A stretch of 29,821 bases of DNA from Phycisphaerae bacterium (GCA_045863575.1 BTUC01000002.1:10726-40546), one strand, 5' to 3'. Counted from the stretch's first letter, positions 8,873-15,256 are shown. A program made the numbers and translations. Notes: a model not told the origin generated them from the letters alone.

Positions 8873-10147
8873 GTGGTCAAAGTCCAATGCCCCCATTGTC
8901 AGCGCCGCTACCGCACGAAGGTCGAAGCCTTCGGCGTCACCGCCGTATGTACCAAGTGCCATCGCGCGTTCAAGATCGGCGAATCGCGCCCCCCCTTCGC
9001 GTGGAAGAGCCAGGATCTGGCCGAAGACTCGTGGATCGGCGTGCCGCCGCCCGAAGAACGCCAGGAGATGAAGCACTGCATCATCTGCGATGCTCCCCTG
9101 CCGCCCGAGGCGCTGCGCTGCCCCGAATGCGGAGCCAACCAGGTCACCGGCGTCGTCCACCGCTCGCGGACGCAGATTACCGAGGAGAAGATCCCCTTTG
9201 GGGCCATGCTGCCGTGGCGGTCGATTACCGTAGTCGCCGTTCTGCTCGTCCTGGGGTTGGGCGTCTACTGGGGCATTCGGGCCATCAGCCGCAGCGCCCA
9301 GCAATTGGGAGACGAGGTCGCTGACACCACATTGGCAACCCAGGTCGCGCGGCAGCTCCGTGACGGCGCGGACGAGTACCTGCTGGCGGAGAAACACGTC
9401 GGCGCGGTCAGCGACGCGAACCTGCCGCGCCTCGTCGGGATGCTCTCCGCACGCGACCCGTACATCCGACGGGCGGCCATCCTGCTGATTGGAGCCGGCC
9501 GGGCGACTCAACTCGAATCGCTCGTGGCCGCAGCTCGTTCGGAATCGGTTGACAGCGCCCGTGCCGCCCGAGACGCGCTGCTGGCCTTCGGGCCCCGGCA
9601 GCTGACAACATTGAGTAACCACGCAGACAGCAGCGTGCGTCAATCCGCCGCCACGGCCCTGGTGCTGCTGTTCGGGCTGGATCAGGCGGTGATTGCGCGC
9701 CTCTCCGAGCCCTCCTCCGATGCCGAGAAGATCCAACGCCTCAATGAGCTCTGCCGGCCATGGCCGCTGCTGACCGGCGGCTTCCACCTCCTGATTGCGG
9801 ACACCCCCGCTCCATTCGCTGTCCAGGTCCAGCAAGTCGGCAAGGTGTTCTACCTCAAAGCGGGCACAGGCCAGTTCATGACGCCCGATCCGCAGGAGCG
9901 GCGATTCCTCATCCCGCTGCACCGCTGGTGCCTGGCCACAGGTTCCGCAGTGGATCCAGAGCGCGTGCGGGAACTGATTGACGGCACCGTCCAACTGGCC
10001 GCACCGGTGGGTGCTGCCTGGGAAGGTCAGGTGCAGGTCAGCGCCAAAACGGTGATCCGCGGCCCTCTGCCTGGGTTCCTGCCCATCGAGCCGCCCCAAC
10101 CAGGCCGGACCGCCGAAGCGCCCATGGAACTGATCCGACCGGGTTAG
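8873..10147 (+). CDS. double zinc-ribbon (MJ0042-type) / single-TM / HEAT-repeat protein
   Basis: 424 aa with a GTG start. CPHCQRRYR...CTKCHRAF and CIICDA...CPECGAN Zn-ribbons, one TM helix (ITVVAVLLVLGLGVYWGI), then PBS-lyase/HEAT-like repeats (DPYIRRAAILLIGAG..., DSSVRQSAATALVLL). The overlapping 487-aa minus-strand ORF is low-complexity R/G-rich and was rejected. Confidence 0.7.
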   Translation: MVKVQCPHCQRRYRTKVEAFGVTAVCTKCHRAFKIGESRPPFAWKSQDLAEDSWIGVPPPEERQEMKHCIICDAPLPPEALRCPECGANQVTGVVHRSRTQITEEKIPFGAMLPWRSITVVAVLLVLGLGVYWGIRAISRSAQQLGDEVADTTLATQVARQLRDGADEYLLAEKHVGAVSDANLPRLVGMLSARDPYIRRAAILLIGAGRATQLESLVAAARSESVDSARAARDALLAFGPRQLTTLSNHADSSVRQSAATALVLLFGLDQAVIARLSEPSSDAEKIQRLNELCRPWPLLTGGFHLLIADTPAPFAVQVQQVGKVFYLKAGTGQFMTPDPQERRFLIPLHRWCLATGSAVDPERVRELIDGTVQLAAPVGAAWEGQVQVSAKTVIRGPLPGFLPIEPPQPGRTAEAPMELIRPG

Positions 10148-10551: not shown

Positions 10552-10584
10552 CCGGTTGCCACCGCTGGCAGAAAGGGGTGACCT

Positions 10585-11331
10585 GTGGTTTCCTCCCAAA
10601 TGCTGGCCCAGAGCGCCTCGCTCTTCGCCTGGTACAACGCCGTGTTCGTCGTGTTCTTCGGCGTGGGACTCTTCTTCACTCTGCTCCAGTTGATCGGCCT
10701 GGGAGGCGAAGGCGGCGTCGATGCGGATGCCGATGTGGACGTCGACGCGGATGTGGATGTGGATGCCGATGTTGACGCGGACGTGGATGCCGATGGGGAT
10801 ATCGACGCCGGTGCGGATGCCGATGGGGACATGGATGCCCACGCAGGCGCCGCGGTCGCCCATGTCCCCAGCCTGGTCGGGACGGCGGCGCAGCTCTTCG
10901 GCCTGGGCAAGATTCCCCTGTCCATGTCGCTCATGCTGCTCTGCTACACCGCGGGAGTCGTCGGGTGGCTGAGCAACAGCTTGTTCGTGGAACGCGGCAT
11001 GGACGTGGCCAGCCTGTTCCCCGTCAGTCTGCTCATCGCGCTGATGGCCGGCTTCGTCGTACTGCGCGCGGTAGGCTCTCTCATGAGCCGTTACCTGCCC
11101 TCGTTCTCCACGACAGCTATCGATAAGCGACAACTGGTGGGCATGACCGCCAAGGCGACCCTACCGGTGAACGAGAAGTTCGGCCAGGCTTCGCTCTTCG
11201 ACAAGCACGGAACGCTGCACGTGGTGGGTTGCCGCGTGCGGACCGGAGCCCCATCGATCGAGAAAGGCAGTCAGATCGTGCTGATCCGGTACATTTCCGA
11301 ACGCGACCTGTTCGTCGTCGGACGAGCATGA
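10585..11331 (+). CDS. NfeD-like membrane protein (YuaF/YqeZ short-form NfeD with C-terminal OB-fold), containing an acidic DV/DA repeat linker
   Basis: 248 aa (GTG at 10585; alternative ATG at 10600 giving MLAQSASLF...). Two N-terminal TM helices. The C-terminal segment QLVGMTAKATLPVNEKFGQASLFDKHGTLHVVGCRVRTGAPSIEKGSQIVLIRYISERDLFVV matches the NfeD OB-fold beta-barrel. It lies immediately upstream of a flotillin gene, the conserved nfeD-floT pairing. Confidence 0.7.
   Translation: MVSSQMLAQSASLFAWYNAVFVVFFGVGLFFTLLQLIGLGGEGGVDADADVDVDADVDVDADVDADVDADGDIDAGADADGDMDAHAGAAVAHVPSLVGTAAQLFGLGKIPLSMSLMLLCYTAGVVGWLSNSLFVERGMDVASLFPVSLLIALMAGFVVLRAVGSLMSRYLPSFSTTAIDKRQLVGMTAKATLPVNEKFGQASLFDKHGTLHVVGCRVRTGAPSIEKGSQIVLIRYISERDLFVVGRA
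10717..10838 (+). repeat. in-frame hexanucleotide tandem repeat (GAT-GYS)n encoding (D-A/V)n acidic dipeptide repeat inside the NfeD-like gene
   Basis: gtcgatgcggatgccgatgtggacgtcgacgcggatgtggatgtggatgccgatgttgacgcggacgtggatgccgatggggatatcgacgcc... encodes VDADADVDVDADVDVDADVDADVDADGDIDAGADADGDMDA. About 20 imperfect 6-nt units. Confidence 0.8.
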
Positions 11332-11399
11332 GCAAGTGAGCATACGGCGGGAGCTTGTGGCGCGGATACGTGGATGAGATTTCGAGAGGAGGCAGCGAC

Positions 11400-13373
11400 A
11401 TGCAAGTATTCACCGGCATCGTGTTCCTCGGCATGGCCCTGATCGTTCTACCGATCGTACTCGAGGATCAGTTCGGGGCTTACCGGTGGGTCCTGATTCC
11501 GCTGGGAGCGGCGCTGCTGGTGATCAGCACGTTCTGCCTGCTGATCGCGCGCTTCTATCGCAAGCCGGCCGCGAATCAGGCCTATGTGCGGACCGGCATG
11601 GGTTCCGCCAAGGTGATCCTGGACGGCGGCGCCTTCGTCATCCCGGTCGTGCACCAGCTCGTCGAGGTGAGCATGGAAACCATGCGCCTCGACGTCAAGC
11701 GCGTCGGGCAGGACGCCCTGATCACGCGTGACAATCTCCGCGTGGACATCGCCAGCGAGTTCTACATTCGCGTGGACGCGAACAAGGAGGCGATCCTTCA
11801 AGCCGCCCGGTCGCTGGGTGAGAAGAGTGTCAACGCCCAGGCTGTCTCCGATCTGGTCTACGAGAAACTGGTCAGCGCTCTGCGCAGCGTGGCCGCCACC
11901 AAGGATCTGCTCGAGCTGCACGTCAAGCGCGATGAATTCGCTTCGGCGGTGCTCGAGAACCTGACCTCCGACCTCCTGCAGAACGGTCTCAAGCTGGAAA
12001 CGGTGACCATCAGCCAGCTCGACCAGACGCCGCCGGAGAGCCTGAACGAACGCAACGTTTTCGACGCCCAGGGGCTCCGCAAAATTACCGAAATCACGCA
12101 GTCTCAGAACGTCGAGCGCAACCGGATCAACCGGGACGCCGAGCGGCAGATCAAGGAAAAGGACGTCGGCATCCGCAAGGAGGTCCTGGGGCTGGAGAAG
12201 GACCAGGCGGAGGCCGAGGCCATGCAGGCCACCGAGATCGCGAACATCAAGGCGGCCAAGCTTCGCGAACAGCAGGAGTACGAGATCCAGCAGCGCCGCG
12301 AGGTCGAACTGGCGGCCGTGCAGAAAGACGAGGCCGTCAAGAGAGCGGAGATTCTCAAGAACCAGTCGGTACAGGTCGCGGACGTGGAGCGGGAACGACA
12401 GGTTAAAACGCAGATGGTTGTGCGCGACCAGAAAGTGCAGGAGGCCGAGGCCGCGCGTCAGCAGGCGGTCGAGGTCGCCAAGCGTCTGGCCGAAATCGCC
12501 ATCGCCGAGAAGGAAGCCGCCCGGGCGGCCGCCGAGGCCAAGGCCAAGGCCGCCGAGTCCGAGCGCGAAAAAGAGGCGCAGAATGTCCAGACCGTGGCGG
12601 TGACCGCCGAGGCCGACCGCGAAGCGCAGAAGAAGATGATCGAGGAGAAGCAGCAGGTGGACGTGGCCAGGTACCGCCAGCAGATTGAGGCCGACGTCGC
12701 CGCTTACACCCAGGTCAAGAAGGCCGAGGGCGAGCTGCAGGCCGCCGAGAAGCAGAAGCAGGCCCGGCTGGTGCTGGCCCAGGCGGACGCCGAGGCCGCC
12801 AAGCGCCGCGCCGAGGGCGACCAGGCCGTCAAGATGGTGGACGTGTCCGTCGATCGCGAGCGCGTGGCCGTCGAGCAGGCCCGCGTCGACGTCGAGCGCA
12901 AGGAACTGGAGAACAAGCAGACCTTCGGCGAGGCGGCCCTCGAGTTCGAGGTCTCCAAGCTGGAGATCCAGGCCAACGCGGAAGTCCAGAAAGCCTTCGC
13001 CCAAGCCATCGGCAACATGCTCTCGCACGCCAACATGCAGATCTTTGGCGACCCGACCACGCTGTCCAACATGGCCGGGCGGTTCATGCAGGCCGCCGGC
13101 TACGGGCAGATGCTCAACGGGCTGAAGGCCTCACTGCCCGAAGACGTGCAGCAGATCGCCGGTCGGGCATTGACCGGAATGGGCGGTTCCCTGGCCGCGG
13201 CATTGCAGAAGGTGACCGGGCAGCACGTCGAACCGGCCGTCCTCGAGAGAGTGATCTCCGAGGTGGTCGCCGATCAGACGGCCCCGCCCGCAGAGGGCAA
13301 CGGCCGGCGCGTGGAGGCAACTCCGGCCAAACCCGAAGCGCCTGCCCGCAAGCAGGAAGAGAAGAAGAGCTGA
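11400..13373 (+). CDS. floT: flotillin-like SPFH/Band-7 protein (FloT/YuaG/YqiK type) with long EA-rich coiled-coil
   Basis: GAGGAGG SD 7 nt upstream of the ATG at 11400 (track start 11355 is probably too long). N-terminal TM anchor, SPFH domain (RTGMGSAKVILDGGAFVIPVVHQLVEVSMETMRLDV...ITRDNLRVDIASEFYIRV), then about 350 aa of E/A/K/Q-rich heptad coiled-coil typical of flotillin. Confidence 0.9.
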   Translation: MQVFTGIVFLGMALIVLPIVLEDQFGAYRWVLIPLGAALLVISTFCLLIARFYRKPAANQAYVRTGMGSAKVILDGGAFVIPVVHQLVEVSMETMRLDVKRVGQDALITRDNLRVDIASEFYIRVDANKEAILQAARSLGEKSVNAQAVSDLVYEKLVSALRSVAATKDLLELHVKRDEFASAVLENLTSDLLQNGLKLETVTISQLDQTPPESLNERNVFDAQGLRKITEITQSQNVERNRINRDAERQIKEKDVGIRKEVLGLEKDQAEAEAMQATEIANIKAAKLREQQEYEIQQRREVELAAVQKDEAVKRAEILKNQSVQVADVERERQVKTQMVVRDQKVQEAEAARQQAVEVAKRLAEIAIAEKEAARAAAEAKAKAAESEREKEAQNVQTVAVTAEADREAQKKMIEEKQQVDVARYRQQIEADVAAYTQVKKAEGELQAAEKQKQARLVLAQADAEAAKRRAEGDQAVKMVDVSVDRERVAVEQARVDVERKELENKQTFGEAALEFEVSKLEIQANAEVQKAFAQAIGNMLSHANMQIFGDPTTLSNMAGRFMQAAGYGQMLNGLKASLPEDVQQIAGRALTGMGGSLAAALQKVTGQHVEPAVLERVISEVVADQTAPPAEGNGRRVEATPAKPEAPARKQEEKKS

Positions 13374-13399: not shown

Positions 13400-13437
13400 C
13401 AGCGACCCGGACGGGCTCAGCGCTCTCCGGGTCGCTG
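13400..13437 (+). terminator. perfect 12-bp inverted repeat hairpin (CAGCGACCCGGA-N14-TCCGGGTCGCTG) after the flotillin stop
   Basis: Seen directly, 27 nt after the TGA. No canonical U-tract (the 3' side reads ccgttgattacg), so it is a probable factor-dependent or weak intrinsic terminator, or an RNA-stability element. Confidence 0.4.
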
Positions 13438-13490: not shown

Positions 13491-13687
13491 TCCGCTGGCG
13501 GCGTCAGCCATGCACAAAGGTCCTGGGAAGCGGTTCCAGGCGGAGCGTAACTCGTGGACACCTTGAAACTGCCGAAGACCGGCACGGTATATGTGGACAC
13601 GCAGATCGTGGTGCGGCGAGTCCGCCCCATGTTACAACTCAGGTTGCGGAGAAGAAGTAAACCAGCGACGAGAGACTCCCGGTGCTT

Positions 13688-15256
13688 ATGTCAAGAACGG
13701 CAGGCAGGTTGTTCCTGTTCATCTTGAGCTGTTTCTCAGCGCTGATATCGTCAGCCTGGGCGGATTGGCGGGACGAAATCGGTTATACGGACCTGCGGGC
13801 GCAGTTGGGCGCGGATACGCCAAGCGGTGCAGGCGTTGACGTAGTCCAGGTAGAGGGCAACTACCTTCAGACGCACCGCTTCCTGCCCTCGACCGACGAT
13901 CCTGAGTTCACCGACAAAGCGATCACAGACAGGACCGGTCTCGGTCTGACCTCCACACACGCCACCCAGGTGGCGCGCTACTGCTACGGATTGACCACCA
14001 GCATCGCTCCGGGCATAGACGTCATCGACTGCTACCAGGCGGACCACTGGCTGGAGGATGGTTTCCTGAGAACATTCGGGCTGAATCCACCCCGCATCGA
14101 GTCGAGACGGATCCAGAACCACAGTTGGATCTCGCGTTACTTCAATTGGCAGAAAAATACGGACGCGATTGAGCGTCTGGATCTGGTCATCGACCGCGAT
14201 GGCGTAGTGGCATGCGCCAGCGTCAACAACTACGATCCAGCCGATCCGACGTCTCGCGAAATGCCGGTACTCATGTGCAGCGCGTACAACGGCATCGCCG
14301 TCGGACTGACAAACGGAAAATCCAGCTACGGACCGACCATCACCTATGTATCCGGCCGAAGCAAGCCCGATCTGGTCGCCACTGCGGGTACCCCCCTGAC
14401 CAGCTATGCGACTGCCGTCACCAGTGCTTCGGCGGCCATGCTCGTGGAGGCACAGGAGCGGCTGGGCGTGTTCTCGGATCTGCCCGCACGAGAGCGTCTC
14501 CGGGCAACACCCATGCTGACCAAGTGTCTTCTCATGGGCGGGGCGACAAAACCTGAGGGCTGGAGACCAGGCACCGTTACCCCCCGCACGGACGGGACGA
14601 TCCCCCTCGATTACCGCTACGGGGCCGGCAGCCTCAACATCCACAAGAGTTACAGGATTCTTTCCGCTGGCCAGCACGCGGGCGGGAATGCAGTCGTGGT
14701 GCCATGCACAGGCTGGGACTACGGCCGTATCGCCGCCGCCGAACGGCGCTACTTCCTCGAGATTCCGCAGAACCAGGTGGCCAGCACAATCTCGATCATG
14801 CTGGTCTGGCACCGAAGGATTGCCACCCCGCCGGACCTCGATCGCGACGATGACGTGGATTCCGCCGATCTCGAGATCTTTCGGGCTTGTACGACGGGAG
14901 CCAACGCGGGTCCTTATCCCGCTGAATGCCGGGAGGTGGATTTCGACGATGACGCTGATATCGACCAAAGTGACTTCGGCGTCTTCCAGGTTTGCGTGAG
15001 CGGCGCCGATCAGCCTCCGCCGGTTGCCTGCCGCCGGCGACCAACAGCCAGTCTGGCGAACCTTGACCTGAAACTTTATGCTACCGAGGGGTTCGAACTA
15101 GGAGCACTTCGCGCCCAGAGCATCTCGCCGATCGACAACGTCGAACACATCTACCTTCAGAACGTCTCGTCCGGAAGCTGGGCGATCGTGGTATCCTCCG
15201 ACGGACTCTCGTCCTATGCCCTCACCTGGGATGCTCAACTGACAGTTTCGCCCTGA
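13688..15256 (+). CDS. secreted divergent subtilisin-like (S8) peptidase-like protein with dockerin-like module and an about 80-aa C-terminal extension
   Basis: Signal peptide MSRTAGRLFLFILSCFSALISSAWA (ATG at 13688; track GTG at 13682). S8-like motifs: His box STHATQVARYCYG (compare HGTHVAG), KPDLVATAG (compare KPDIxAPG), Ser box TSYATAVTSASAAM (compare GTSMAAP), C-terminal YRYGAGSLNIHKSY (compare GxGxxNxxxA). The Asp box is not clear. The dockerin-like module at 14834-15021 is DLDRDDDVDSADLEIFRACTTGA...DFDDDADIDQSDFGVFQVCVSGA. Confidence 0.65.
   Translation: MSRTAGRLFLFILSCFSALISSAWADWRDEIGYTDLRAQLGADTPSGAGVDVVQVEGNYLQTHRFLPSTDDPEFTDKAITDRTGLGLTSTHATQVARYCYGLTTSIAPGIDVIDCYQADHWLEDGFLRTFGLNPPRIESRRIQNHSWISRYFNWQKNTDAIERLDLVIDRDGVVACASVNNYDPADPTSREMPVLMCSAYNGIAVGLTNGKSSYGPTITYVSGRSKPDLVATAGTPLTSYATAVTSASAAMLVEAQERLGVFSDLPARERLRATPMLTKCLLMGGATKPEGWRPGTVTPRTDGTIPLDYRYGAGSLNIHKSYRILSAGQHAGGNAVVVPCTGWDYGRIAAAERRYFLEIPQNQVASTISIMLVWHRRIATPPDLDRDDDVDSADLEIFRACTTGANAGPYPAECREVDFDDDADIDQSDFGVFQVCVSGADQPPPVACRRRPTASLANLDLKLYATEGFELGALRAQSISPIDNVEHIYLQNVSSGSWAIVVSSDGLSSYALTWDAQLTVSP

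What the first reader, a model, noticed from the sequence alone, without database searches (positions are those of the whole stretch)
10585..13373. NfeD-flotillin operon in which the NfeD carries a 40-aa (Asp-Val/Ala)n repeat encoded by a hexanucleotide microsatellite
The gene pair is the classical YuaF-FloT/YqeZ-YqfA membrane-microdomain module. Here the NfeD linker between the TM segments and the OB-fold is a pure alternating acidic repeat (DADADVDVDADVDVDADVDADVDADGDIDAGADADGDMDA), written as about 20 GATGYS units at 10717-10838. Such a repeat is prone to in-frame slippage, so linker length could vary, and it would be a high-capacity cation-binding stretch next to the membrane.
Basis: seen in the sequence. 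Interest (0 to 1): 0.5.

Follow-up and report, generated by a model that had tools for sequence, protein, structure and literature searches.

The report
Acidic loop in flotillin partner protein
This is an ordinary two-gene flotillin operon of the E. coli YqiJ–YqiK type, and the striking Asp-X repeat is not a slippage-prone DNA microsatellite but a loop that most members of the YqiJ family carry; its function is untested, and it probably binds metal ions on the cytoplasmic face of the membrane.

Summary
The sequence facts hold. ORF 10585-11331 (248 aa) carries the quoted 40-residue (Asp-X)20 tract (nt 10720-10839), and a 657-aa flotillin-type SPFH gene follows (11400-13373).

Three parts of the interpretation need correcting:
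- **Family.** The first protein is a YqiJ/DUF1449-type partner, which has an NfeD-like OB fold. It does not match Pfam NfeD, and the pair matches E. coli YqiJ-YqiK.
- **Position.** The tract lies between TM1 and TM2, not between the TM segments and the OB fold. It is predicted disordered and most likely cytoplasmic.
- **DNA.** Period-6 self-identity is 0.63, equal to random back-translation of the same peptide (0.64±0.03). No more than about 2.8 identical units occur in a row, and every 17-mer is unique. This is a protein-level repeat, not a contingency locus or an assembly artefact.

The tract is a family hallmark. A search with the repeat-less C-terminal part found 136 full-length representatives. 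Of these, 114 have at least 6 alternating D/E/H positions right after TM1, and 20 have at least 20 (the window has 21).

Asp is preferred over Glu. The X positions are 63% hydrophobic and 15% His, and almost never Lys or Arg. Cation binding is plausible but untested.

Verdict: a new member of a known kind, of modest interest.

The parts
10572..10578 (+). Shine-Dalgarno-like AAAGGGG, 6 nt before the GTG start of the YqiJ-like gene
   Evidence: Read directly. The N-terminus aligns with relatives (MVSAHMLAQ...), which supports the GTG at 10585 as the start.
10585..11331 (+). YqiJ/DUF1449-family gene (NfeD-like flotillin partner), 248 aa
   Evidence: There are 769 homologs at E<=1e-3, many carrying PF21001 YqiJ_N and named DUF1449/YqiJ family. 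BLASTP to E. coli YqiJ gives E=3e-8. The Pfam hits of the window protein itself are sub-threshold. AF2 model pLDDT is 80.6.
10630..10692 (+). TM1 (aa 16-36), preceded by a short uncharged N-tail
   Evidence: AF2 helix 16-36 with pLDDT >90. Hydropathy peak 2.49. The N-tail has K+R 0.02 on average across 60 homologs.
10720..10839 (+). (Asp-X)20 tract, aa 46-85: 19 Asp and 1 Gly in the acidic phase; X = A, V, G, I, M
   Evidence: AF2 pLDDT is below 50 across aa 44-92. The equivalent tract is present in 114 of 136 unbiased family representatives.
10785..10844 (+). Two 30-nt units (DADGDIDAGA / DADGDMDAHA), 24/30 identical: the only trace of a DNA-level duplication
   Evidence: for the direct comparison. 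TRF period 30 scores 129. The only repeated 15-mer in the tract lies here. Period-30 identity is not significant against the back-translation null (P=0.10).
10873..10917 (+). Short amphipathic helix and the conserved GxG(K/R)xP motif (aa 97-111) leading into TM2
   Evidence: G106, G108 and P111 are invariant or nearly so. The motif occurs in 119 of 136 representatives. AF2 helix 97-104.
10918..11094 (+). TM2 (aa 112-136) and TM3 (aa 141-170) helical hairpin
   Evidence: AF2 helices with pLDDT >90. K/R cluster at and after the end of TM3.
11140..11328 (+). C-terminal five-stranded OB-fold domain (aa 186-248)
   Evidence: AF2 strands 188-247. Foldseek top hits are YbbJ in 8z5g and the NfeD soluble domains 3cp0 (TMt 0.87, rmsd 1.9 Å) and 3wwv (TMt 0.82). 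A weak profile hit to YuaF 2k14.
11384..11392 (+). Shine-Dalgarno GAGAGGAGG, 7 nt before the flotillin ATG
   Evidence: Read directly.
11400..13373 (+). YqiK-like flotillin (SPFH2) gene, 657 aa: N-terminal hydrophobic hairpin, Band_7 domain (about nt 11574-12074), long Ala/Glu-rich coiled-coil region
   Evidence: Pfam Band_7 E=1.2e-17, above the cut-off. E. coli YqiK 34% identity over 450 aa, E=4e-67. The closest solved sequences are human flotillin-2 and flotillin-1. 76-84% identical in relatives L002-L005. A+E+K+R+Q make up 66% of aa 250-520.
13400..13437 (+). Perfect 12-bp inverted repeat 27 nt after the flotillin stop; a possible terminator hairpin without a T-run
   Evidence: The consensus terminator scan did not pick it up.

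Best explanation
A two-gene operon encodes a YqiJ/DUF1449-type NfeD-like membrane protein and a YqiK-type flotillin in a Phycisphaerae-like planctomycete.

**Shown**
- The (Asp-X)20 stretch is this copy of a length-variable loop between TM1 and TM2 that most of the YqiJ family carries.
- The pattern is held at the protein level: strict period-2 alternation, Asp preferred over Glu, small or hydrophobic or His residues at X, and almost no Lys or Arg.
- The synonymous sites are as scrambled as chance allows.

**Inferred**
- The topology is N-out, loop-in, C-in. That places the tract on the cytoplasmic face, on the same side as the OB fold and the SPFH domain.
- The protein sits in a multi-copy ring with the flotillin cage, by analogy with the 26:26 QmcA-YbbJ complex. 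The cage base would then carry several hundred carboxylates.
- The loop is disordered on its own and acts as a low-affinity, high-capacity binder of divalent cations (Mg2+/Ca2+ here, transition metals in the His-rich relatives). Binding may order it into an amphipathic extended structure that tunes assembly or the local ionic environment of the microdomain.
For: **Identity**
- Searches show sequence homology to YqiJ, YqiK and flotillins.
- Searches give three TM helices plus an NfeD-type OB fold.
- The gene pair is conserved in all relatives examined: four planctomycete MAG loci and four further places, in a Phycisphaerae MAG, a Chloroflexi MAG, an unnamed metagenome contig with the same gene row, and an 11-Mb contig.

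**Family hallmark, without search bias**
- A phmmer search with the repeat-less residues 86-248 found 798 representatives.
- Of 136 full-length ones, 114 have at least 6 alternating D/E/H positions after TM1, 72 have at least 10, and 20 have at least 20.

**Protein-level selection**
- DNA period-6 identity is 0.632 against a null of 0.637±0.029.
- D/(D+E) is 0.77 in the loop and 0.43 elsewhere.
- The X phase is A 27%, V 20%, H 15%, and K/R 0.4%.
- Loops have a median of 14 D+E and 6 His.

**Topology**
- Across 60 homologs the N-tail has K+R 0.02.
- A conserved K/R sits just before TM2.
- About 4 K/R lie at and after the end of TM3.
- The QmcA-YbbJ cage protrudes into the cytoplasm (PMC13086221, citing Tan 2024).

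**Disorder**
- pLDDT is below 50 across aa 44-92.

**Link to metals**
- Deleting the YqiK-like SO1377 in Shewanella lowered EPR-detectable free iron threefold. Its DUF1449 partner SO1376 was proposed as a metallochaperone (PMC1468410).
- One homolog was auto-annotated as RcnA-like.
- The window protein contains 15 overlapping DxDxD triads and one DxDxDG motif.
Against: - No ion binding has been measured for any YqiJ-family loop.
- The window copy has only 2 His, so transition-metal binding is less likely here than in relatives.
- E. coli YqiJ keeps only a vestige of the tract (LDAHLDHYD), so the tract is dispensable for the basic YqiJ-YqiK partnership.
- Acidic residues are statistically enriched on the outer flank of TM helices (recalled from the literature, not checked here), which argues mildly against a cytoplasmic loop.
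- The stoichiometry and position of YqiJ relative to a YqiK cage are extrapolated from a different NfeD/SPFH branch.
- Low AF2 confidence is compatible with disorder but does not prove it.
- The B. subtilis nfeD2 deletion has no discernible phenotype (PMC4928834).
Confidence: 0.6

Rival explanations
1. Passive polyanionic spacer. The loop is a disordered, negatively charged 'bristle' whose only role is electrostatic and entropic: keeping neighbouring subunits or the anionic membrane surface apart, or setting the distance between TM1 and the TM2-TM3 hairpin. It does no specific ion binding.
For: - AF2 pLDDT is below 50 across the tract.
- Loop length is very variable: 17-171 aa across the family and 58-96 aa among close relatives.
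- The tract is almost absent from E. coli YqiJ.
Against: A pure charge spacer should tolerate Glu and any ordering of residues. Instead:
- the alternation is strict (21 positions against a maximum of 16 in 5000 loop shuffles);
- Asp is strongly preferred (0.77 against 0.43 elsewhere);
- X is 63% hydrophobic and 15% His.
Confidence: 0.22
2. One reading: a hexanucleotide microsatellite that slips in frame, so linker length varies between cells or strains, as in a contingency locus.
For: - The number of repeat units differs widely among relatives.
- One 30-nt near-duplication is present (24/30).
- GAT is enriched in the tract, 13 of 19 against a 38% background, P=0.007.
Against: - Period-6 DNA self-identity equals the back-translation null (P=0.62).
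- The longest perfect period-6 run is 11 nt, and 9 of 20 units fit GATGYS.
- All k-mers of 17 nt or more are unique.
- Homolog tracts of 54-66 aa are reproduced identically: P0060 is on 10 contigs and P0020 on 4, each with two places from separate assemblies that proved identical or nearly so over 10.7-10.9 kb.
- The GAT excess is not seen in four relatives.
Confidence: 0.05
3. Opposite topology. The acidic loop faces the periplasm, where it binds Mg2+/Ca2+ at the outer leaflet or the cell envelope.
For: - Acidic residues tend to be enriched on the outer flank of TM helices (general knowledge, not tested here).
- No K/R occurs in the first about 60 loop residues.
Against: - With three TM helices, the loop must lie on the same side as the C-terminal OB fold.
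- The OB fold follows a K/R cluster and has to meet the SPFH domain.
- The SPFH domain follows RFYRK on the flotillin, and in QmcA-YbbJ the cage is cytoplasmic (PMC13086221).
- The segment at aa 87-105 is only weakly hydrophobic (1.22), and in relatives it carries charged residues. A fourth TM helix is therefore unlikely.
Confidence: 0.1
4. Assembly artefact: a collapsed or expanded low-complexity stretch.
For: The sequence probably comes from a metagenome-derived genome, and low-complexity regions can be mis-assembled.
Against: - Every k-mer of 17 nt or more in the tract is unique in the window.
- The frame is intact.
- Relatives have equivalent tracts at the same position.
Confidence: 0.02

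Closest known systems
E. coli YqiJ-YqiK (DUF1449 inner-membrane protein plus flotillin-family protein; NfeD2/SPFH2 of Hinderhofer et al. 2009, PMC2636767)
   Same: - Same gene order, with a short intergenic gap.
- YqiK is 34% identical over 450 aa (E=4e-67).
- YqiJ aligns from the loop end through TM2, TM3 and the OB fold (E=3e-8).
- The GxG(K/R)xP motif is shared as IGRLP.
   Different: - E. coli YqiJ has only a vestigial LDAHLDHYD where the window has 40 residues of (Asp-X)n.
- The window protein falls below Pfam's YqiJ_N and YqiJ_OB thresholds.
- The window flotillin is about 100 aa longer and has two N-terminal hydrophobic segments.
B. subtilis YuaF(NfeD2)-FloT
   Same: - It belongs to the same SPFH2/NfeD2 operon class (PMC2636767).
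- NfeD2 colocalises with FloT, co-migrates with it, and needs it to form foci (PMC4928834).
- There is a weak profile match to the YuaF soluble domain 2k14.
   Different: - The NCBIfam FloT equivalog scores 31.6 bits against a cut-off of 700.
- Whether full-length YuaF has an acidic loop was not examined here.
E. coli QmcA-YbbJ (stomatin-type SPFH1 plus classical NfeD; cryo-EM 8z5g, Tan et al. 2024)
   Same: - YbbJ is the best structural match to the model.
- It provides the architectural analogy: a cytoplasmic cage of 26 heterodimers (PMC13086221).
   Different: - YbbJ (152 aa) has no acidic tract.
- The profile-profile match is very weak (probability 5%).
- It is a different SPFH branch, and the gene order is reversed (qmcA lies upstream of ybbJ).
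Shewanella oneidensis SO1376 (DUF1449)-SO1377 (COG2268)
   Same: - It is the same family pair.
- It is the only member found in these searches with a phenotype linked to metals: lower free iron and H2O2 sensitivity (PMC1468410).
   Different: - The phenotype is for the flotillin gene, not for the DUF1449 gene.
- The authors argued from Cys and His residues, not from an Asp tract.
Asp/His-rich cytoplasmic loops of metal transporters (for example RcnA and CDF/ZIP His-rich loops) and DxDxDG calcium-binding loops
   Same: - Composition is similar, with runs of DxDxD or DHDH next to TM helices.
- One homolog was auto-annotated as RcnA-like.
- One DxDxDG motif lies at aa 66-71.
   Different: - There is no homology.
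- The window tract has 2 His only.
- The EF-hand position-12 Glu is missing.
- No Pfam calcium- or metal-binding domain matches.
- The resemblance is recalled from general knowledge, not tested.

Membership tests
YqiJ / DUF1449 (Pfam PF21001 YqiJ_N + PF07290 YqiJ_OB) | Match to the Pfam models above their gathering scores | tested here: not met
   YqiJ_N scores 14.7 bits (cut-off 23, E=0.035) and YqiJ_OB scores 12.3 bits (cut-off 25.4). The YqiJ_N match spans aa 21-139, so it is interrupted by the 40-aa tract.
YqiJ / DUF1449 (Pfam PF21001 YqiJ_N + PF07290 YqiJ_OB) | Significant sequence homology to recognised family members, including E. coli YqiJ | tested here: met
   Homologs with precomputed PF21001 and DUF1449/YqiJ names score E=1e-30 to 1e-79. 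BLASTP to E. coli YqiJ gives E=3e-8 over 181 columns.
YqiJ / DUF1449 (Pfam PF21001 YqiJ_N + PF07290 YqiJ_OB) | Architecture of three TM helices followed by a C-terminal OB-fold domain | tested here: met
   The AF2 model (pLDDT 80.6) has helices 16-36, 112-136 and 141-170, and five strands across 188-247.
YqiJ / DUF1449 (Pfam PF21001 YqiJ_N + PF07290 YqiJ_OB) | Encoded immediately upstream of a YqiK-type flotillin gene | tested here: met
   In the window the gap is 68 nt. The same arrangement holds in L002-L005 and L008-L013.
NfeD (Pfam PF01957; YbbJ/PH0471 type) | Match to the Pfam NfeD model | tested here: not met
   PF01957 gives no hit even at E<=10. hhalign against E. coli YbbJ gives probability 5%.
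NfeD (Pfam PF01957; YbbJ/PH0471 type) | Membrane-anchored five-stranded OB-fold C-terminal domain | tested here: met
   Foldseek against the PDB finds 8z5g YbbJ (E=1.5e-4), 3cp0 (TMt 0.87, rmsd 1.9 Å) and 3wwv (TMt 0.82). This rests on a predicted model, not an experimental structure.
NfeD (Pfam PF01957; YbbJ/PH0471 type) | Physical interaction with the neighbouring SPFH protein | not testable with these tools
   Interaction has been shown only for other pairs: FloA-NfeD (PMC11222466), FloT-NfeD2 (PMC4928834) and QmcA-YbbJ (8z5g).
Flotillin / YqiK (SPFH2, COG2268) | Band_7/SPFH domain after an N-terminal membrane anchor | tested here: met
   PF01145 scores E=1.2e-17, 64.9 bits against a cut-off of 23.6. 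The N-terminal hydrophobic segments are visible.
Flotillin / YqiK (SPFH2, COG2268) | Closer to flotillins and YqiK than to stomatin or HflK/C, with a long Ala/Glu-rich coiled-coil region | tested here: met
   YqiK E=4e-67. The only PDB sequence hits are human flotillin-1 and flotillin-2. A+E+K+R+Q make up 66% of aa 250-520.
Flotillin / YqiK (SPFH2, COG2268) | NCBIfam FloT equivalog cut-off | tested here: not met
   31.6 bits against a cut-off of 700. It is therefore not a FloT equivalog.
Simple-sequence contingency locus (slippage-prone microsatellite) | A run of many identical or near-identical tandem DNA units | tested here: not met
   The longest perfect period-6 run is 11 nt. TRF gives 66% matches. 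9 of 20 units fit the consensus.
Simple-sequence contingency locus (slippage-prone microsatellite) | DNA repetitiveness beyond what the encoded peptide imposes | tested here: not met
   Observed 0.632 against a null of 0.637±0.029, P=0.62.
Simple-sequence contingency locus (slippage-prone microsatellite) | Length polymorphism within a species or population | not testable with these tools
   No reads are available, and no relative above about 69% identity was found.
EF-hand-like DxDxDG calcium-binding loop | DxDxDG with a hydrophobic residue at position 8 and an acidic bidentate ligand at position 12 | tested here: inconclusive
   One DVDADGDIDAGA at aa 66-77 has the DxDxDG motif and Ile at position 8, but Ala at position 12. 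No Pfam EF-hand hit was found.

The most novel reading that the evidence does not exclude
The (Asp/His-X)n loop of YqiJ-family proteins, multiplied by the copy number of a flotillin cage, forms a membrane-attached, high-capacity store of divalent metal ions on the cytoplasmic face. This store buffers or senses metals, and it gives YqiK-type flotillins a role in metal homeostasis. That would explain the free-iron phenotype of the Shewanella SO1377 mutant. Asp-only variants like this one would be tuned to Mg2+/Ca2+, and His-rich variants to transition metals.
Probability: 0.15. Interest if true: 0.6.

Novelty: new member of a known kind. Interest (0 to 1): 0.3.

Why it matters
Bacterial flotillin/NfeD pairs are widespread, and their molecular job is still debated. 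Proposals include scaffolding, stabilisation of unfolded proteins, and membrane-stress response.

This analysis gives one cheap, testable lead. Most YqiJ-type partners carry a patterned Asp/His-rich juxtamembrane loop that none of the papers returned by the full-text searches run here was seen to describe. Its conservation of pattern, but not of length or sequence, points to ion binding or a patterned interface rather than a passive spacer.

For the scan itself, the useful result is negative. The stretch is neither a hypervariable microsatellite nor special to this genome.

Tried and rejected
- **Pfam and NCBIfam on the 248-aa protein.** The only hits at or below E=0.01 were composition-driven: TrAA12 and the MSCRAMM Ser-Asp repeat adhesins. 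I rejected these as low-complexity artefacts.
- **Biased first census.** The word-indexed homolog search could have been biased by DADAD words. I therefore repeated the census with an index-free phmmer search of the repeat-less residues 86-248. The conclusion held.
- **GAT codon excess as a sign of recent DNA expansion.** The excess is significant in the window (P=0.007) but is not reproduced in four relatives. Synonymous scrambling argues against recent expansion, so this remains a minor unexplained bias.
- **Search for same-species sequences to test length polymorphism.**
  - The exact-protein look-up found nothing.
  - The degenerate DNA pattern in metagenome contigs found nothing.
  - Related-locus scans returned only relatives at 33-61% identity.
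- **L010 against L011, and L008 against L009.** I hoped these were strain pairs. They are 100% and 99.99% identical over 10.7-10.9 kb. They show only that separate assemblies reproduce the tract.
- **A fourth TM helix at aa 87-105.** This would flip the loop to the periplasm. I rejected it because hydropathy is weak (1.22), relatives carry charged residues there, and AF2 gives only an 8-residue helix.
- **Consensus promoter and terminator scan.** It was uninformative.
- **tRNA and Rfam scans of the window.** Both were empty.
- **Pfam on the Asp-rich C-terminus of the neighbouring S8-like ORF.** No hit.


Full report
**1. What is in the sequence**

The stretch 10585-13373 holds two co-directional genes.

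- The first gene is 10585-11331 and encodes 248 aa. It starts at a GTG preceded by AAAGGGG.
- In that peptide, 19 of the 20 odd positions are Asp. The even positions are Ala, Val, Gly, Ile or Met.
- The second gene starts at the ATG at 11400, after GAGAGGAGG, and ends at 13373 (657 aa).
- A perfect 12-bp inverted repeat follows at 13400-13437.
- The alternation is not a by-product of composition. By one fixed metric the protein has 21 alternating acidic/His positions. Shuffling the whole protein gives a mean of 3.2 (max 8). Shuffling only the loop gives a mean of 6.8 (max 16).

**2. What the two proteins are**

The downstream protein is a flotillin-type SPFH protein.

- It has a Band_7/SPFH domain above Pfam's threshold (E=1.2e-17).
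- It is 34% identical to E. coli YqiK over 450 residues (E=4e-67).
- Its only sequence relatives among solved structures are human flotillin-1 and flotillin-2.
- It is not a FloT equivalog by NCBIfam (31.6 bits against a cut-off of 700).

The upstream protein belongs to the YqiJ/DUF1449 family rather than to classical NfeD.

- It does not match Pfam NfeD at all. It matches the two YqiJ models only below threshold, and the YqiJ_N match spans the inserted tract.
- Its homologs are numerous (769 at E<=1e-3). They are annotated DUF1449/YqiJ family and carry PF21001.
- It aligns to E. coli YqiJ from the end of the loop through the C-terminus (E=3e-8).
- An AlphaFold2 model built on 60 homologs (mean pLDDT 80.6) shows TM1 at 16-36 and a low-confidence stretch at 44-92. 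A short helix follows at 97-104, then TM2 at 112-136, TM3 at 141-170, and a five-stranded barrel at 188-247.
- Foldseek places that barrel with NfeD-type OB folds. The hits are YbbJ in the QmcA-YbbJ cryo-EM complex, 3cp0 (TMt 0.87, rmsd 1.9 Å) and P. horikoshii 1510-C.

The pair therefore belongs to the SPFH2/NfeD2 operon class described by Hinderhofer et al. (PMC2636767). That class groups YuaF/YqiJ with YuaG(FloT)/YqiK. It is not the YqeZ-YqfA class. The closest loci found are Phycisphaerae and Planctomycetales MAGs.

**3. Where the tract sits**

The tract is the loop between TM1 and TM2, not a linker to the OB fold. Charge distribution across 60 aligned homologs supports an N-out, loop-in, C-in topology:

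- The N-tail averages 9 residues with essentially no Lys or Arg.
- A conserved Lys/Arg lies in the GxG(K/R)xP motif just before TM2.
- About four Lys/Arg cluster at and after the end of TM3.

The flotillin's SPFH domain also follows a basic stretch (RFYRK). The homologous QmcA-YbbJ cage is cytoplasmic (PMC13086221). With three TM helices, the loop must be on the same side as the OB fold, which is the cytoplasm.

This is an inference. The general enrichment of acidic residues on outer flanks of TM helices is a mild counter-argument. A fourth TM helix at 87-105 would invert the loop, but it is unlikely. Hydropathy there is weak, the equivalent segment in relatives carries charged residues, and AF2 gives only an 8-residue helix.

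**4. Is it a microsatellite?**

At the DNA level it is not, in any mutationally meaningful sense.

- TRF reports period 6 with 66% matches.
- 9 of 20 hexamers fit GATGYS, and the longest perfect period-6 self-match is 11 nt.
- I back-translated the same 40 residues 5000 times with the window's own codon usage. Expected period-6 identity is 0.637±0.029, and the observed value is 0.632 (P=0.62). The DNA is exactly as repetitive as the peptide forces it to be. Synonymous positions carry no memory of recent unit duplication.
- The one exception is a 30-nt pair at 10785-10844 (24/30 identical), which is not significant against the null (P=0.10).
- Asp codons in the tract are GAT-rich, 13 of 19 against a 38% background (P=0.007). 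Four relatives do not show this.
- All k-mers of 17 nt or more are unique, so collapse or expansion during assembly is improbable.
- Two homologs with 54-66-aa tracts are each on record with an identical protein on 4 to 10 contigs. For each, two places from separate assemblies proved identical or nearly so over 10.7-10.9 kb.
- Strain-level polymorphism could not be tested, because no relative closer than about 69% identity exists in the collections.

**5. The tract is a family hallmark**

All 120 best homologs carry a (D/E/H-X)n run of 10-94 residues after TM1, starting at residues 34-90 in all but two truncated entries. That search uses shared 5-mers and could favour DADAD-containing proteins. 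I therefore repeated it with an index-free phmmer search using only residues 86-248, which gave 798 representatives at E<=1e-3.

Results for the 136 full-length proteins among the best 150:

| Alternating D/E/H positions | Proteins |
|---|---|
| at least 6 | 114 |
| at least 10 | 72 |
| at least 15 | 36 |
| at least 20 | 20 |

The window copy has 21, so it is long but unexceptional.

Composition across the family:

| Feature | Value |
|---|---|
| Acidic phase | D 61%, E 14.5%, H 11% |
| X phase | A 27%, V 20%, H 15%, G 8.5%, L 7% |
| X phase, hydrophobic in total | 63% |
| X phase, K/R | 0.4% |
| D/(D+E) in the loop | 0.77 |
| D/(D+E) in the rest of the protein | 0.43 |
| Loop length | 17-171 residues |
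| Acidic residues per loop (median) | 14 |
| His per loop (median) | 6 |

- Among close relatives the loop is 58-96 residues, while the rest of the protein is 55-71% identical.
- The adjacent flotillin is 76-84% identical in the same loci where YqiJ is 45-61% identical.
- E. coli YqiJ retains only LDAHLDHYD.
- The classical NfeD protein YbbJ has no such tract.
- The gene pair is conserved in every locus examined. In a Chloroflexi MAG locus and a second metagenome contig with the same layout, pspA and a small Ion_trans_2 gene follow it. This matches the YqiJ/Band-7/PspA association described in PMC11237479.

**6. How it most likely works**

*Shown:*
- The family membership and the position of the tract.
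- Selection on the pattern at the protein level.
- Low structural confidence across the tract.

*Inferred:*
- The loop is cytoplasmic.
- YqiJ is present in many copies around or under a YqiK cage. This follows from the 26:26 QmcA-YbbJ cage and from FloT-NfeD2 co-assembly (PMC13086221, PMC4928834).
- The tract binds divalent cations.

The pattern argues for more than a passive polyanion. It is strictly periodic, prefers Asp, has small, hydrophobic or His residues at X, and excludes Lys and Arg. It yields 15 overlapping DxDxD triads and one DxDxDG motif in this protein.

From my own knowledge, not tested here:
- DxDxD(G) is the commonest Ca2+/Mg2+-ligating motif.
- Alternating Asp-hydrophobic peptides form cation-binding amphipathic β-sheets at interfaces.
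- Asp/His-rich loops are typical of metal transporters.

The only experimental link to metals found for the family is in Shewanella. Deleting the YqiK-like SO1377 lowered free iron threefold, and the DUF1449 partner SO1376 was proposed as a metallochaperone (PMC1468410).

Against the model:
- No binding data exist.
- This copy has only 2 His.
- E. coli manages with a vestige of the tract.
- The B. subtilis nfeD2 deletion has no discernible phenotype (PMC4928834).

I put identity at above 0.9 and the cation-binding mechanism at about 0.4. The main rival is a passive charged spacer, at about 0.2.

**7. Novelty and verdict**

The operon is a new member of a well-known kind. The tract is neither unique to this genome nor a contingency repeat. 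None of the papers returned by full-text searches for YqiJ, YqiK, DUF1449, NfeD with flotillin and cryo-EM, NfeD2 with FloT, or QmcA with YbbJ was seen to describe the loop. Its family-wide conservation may therefore be undocumented, although any alignment shows it.

That gives a modest, testable lead about flotillin partners, but nothing a specialist would find very surprising. Interest is 0.3.

Noticed in passing
window 11400-13373 compared with 10585-11331; loci L002-L005: The flotillin is 76-84% identical to its counterparts in four planctomycete MAG loci. The adjacent YqiJ-like partner is only 45-61% identical (55-71% outside the loop among the 13 closest database homologs). The two partners evolve at very different rates.
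   Followed up: partly
L010 5001-8938 and L013 5001-9222: In a Chloroflexi MAG locus (L010) and a metagenome contig with the same layout (L013), the pair is extended to a four-gene row: yqiJ, Band_7, PspA_IM30 and a small Ion_trans_2 (K+-channel-like) gene. The window has no pspA nearby.
   Followed up: no
window 10720-10839: Asp codons in the tract are 68% GAT (13 of 19) against 38% in the window's long ORFs (P=0.007). Four relatives show no such bias. This is unexplained.
   Followed up: partly
window 13400-13437: A perfect 12-bp inverted repeat (CAGCGACCCGGA / TCCGGGTCGCTG, 14-nt loop) lies 27 nt after the flotillin stop, without a T-run. It is a possible terminator that the consensus scan missed.
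   Followed up: partly
window 11448-13028 (-): A 526-aa open frame runs antisense to the flotillin gene. It is most likely a by-product of the GC-rich, Ala/Glu-rich codon run on the sense strand rather than a gene.
   Followed up: no
window 13682-15256 (+): The ORF has a weak, sub-threshold Peptidase_S8 match (E=2.6e-4). It carries two Asp-rich segments (DLDRDDDVDSADLEIF and DFDDDADIDQSDFGVFQ) that look like paired dockerin or EF-hand-type calcium loops by eye. No Pfam domain was found there.
   Followed up: partly
window 8873-10147 (+); L002 2532-3803: A protein with sub-threshold zinc-ribbon and HEAT-repeat Pfam matches is encoded directly upstream of yqiJ. It is conserved in the same position in one relative (48% identity), but not in the other three.
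   Followed up: no
window 1-29821: The rest of the window is ordinary chromosomal content: argininosuccinate lyase, an OprB-type porin, glycoside hydrolases, a PKD-domain protein, and a glycosyltransferase/amine-oxidase fusion. There are no tRNA genes or Rfam RNA families. Overall GC is 63.5%.
   Followed up: yes
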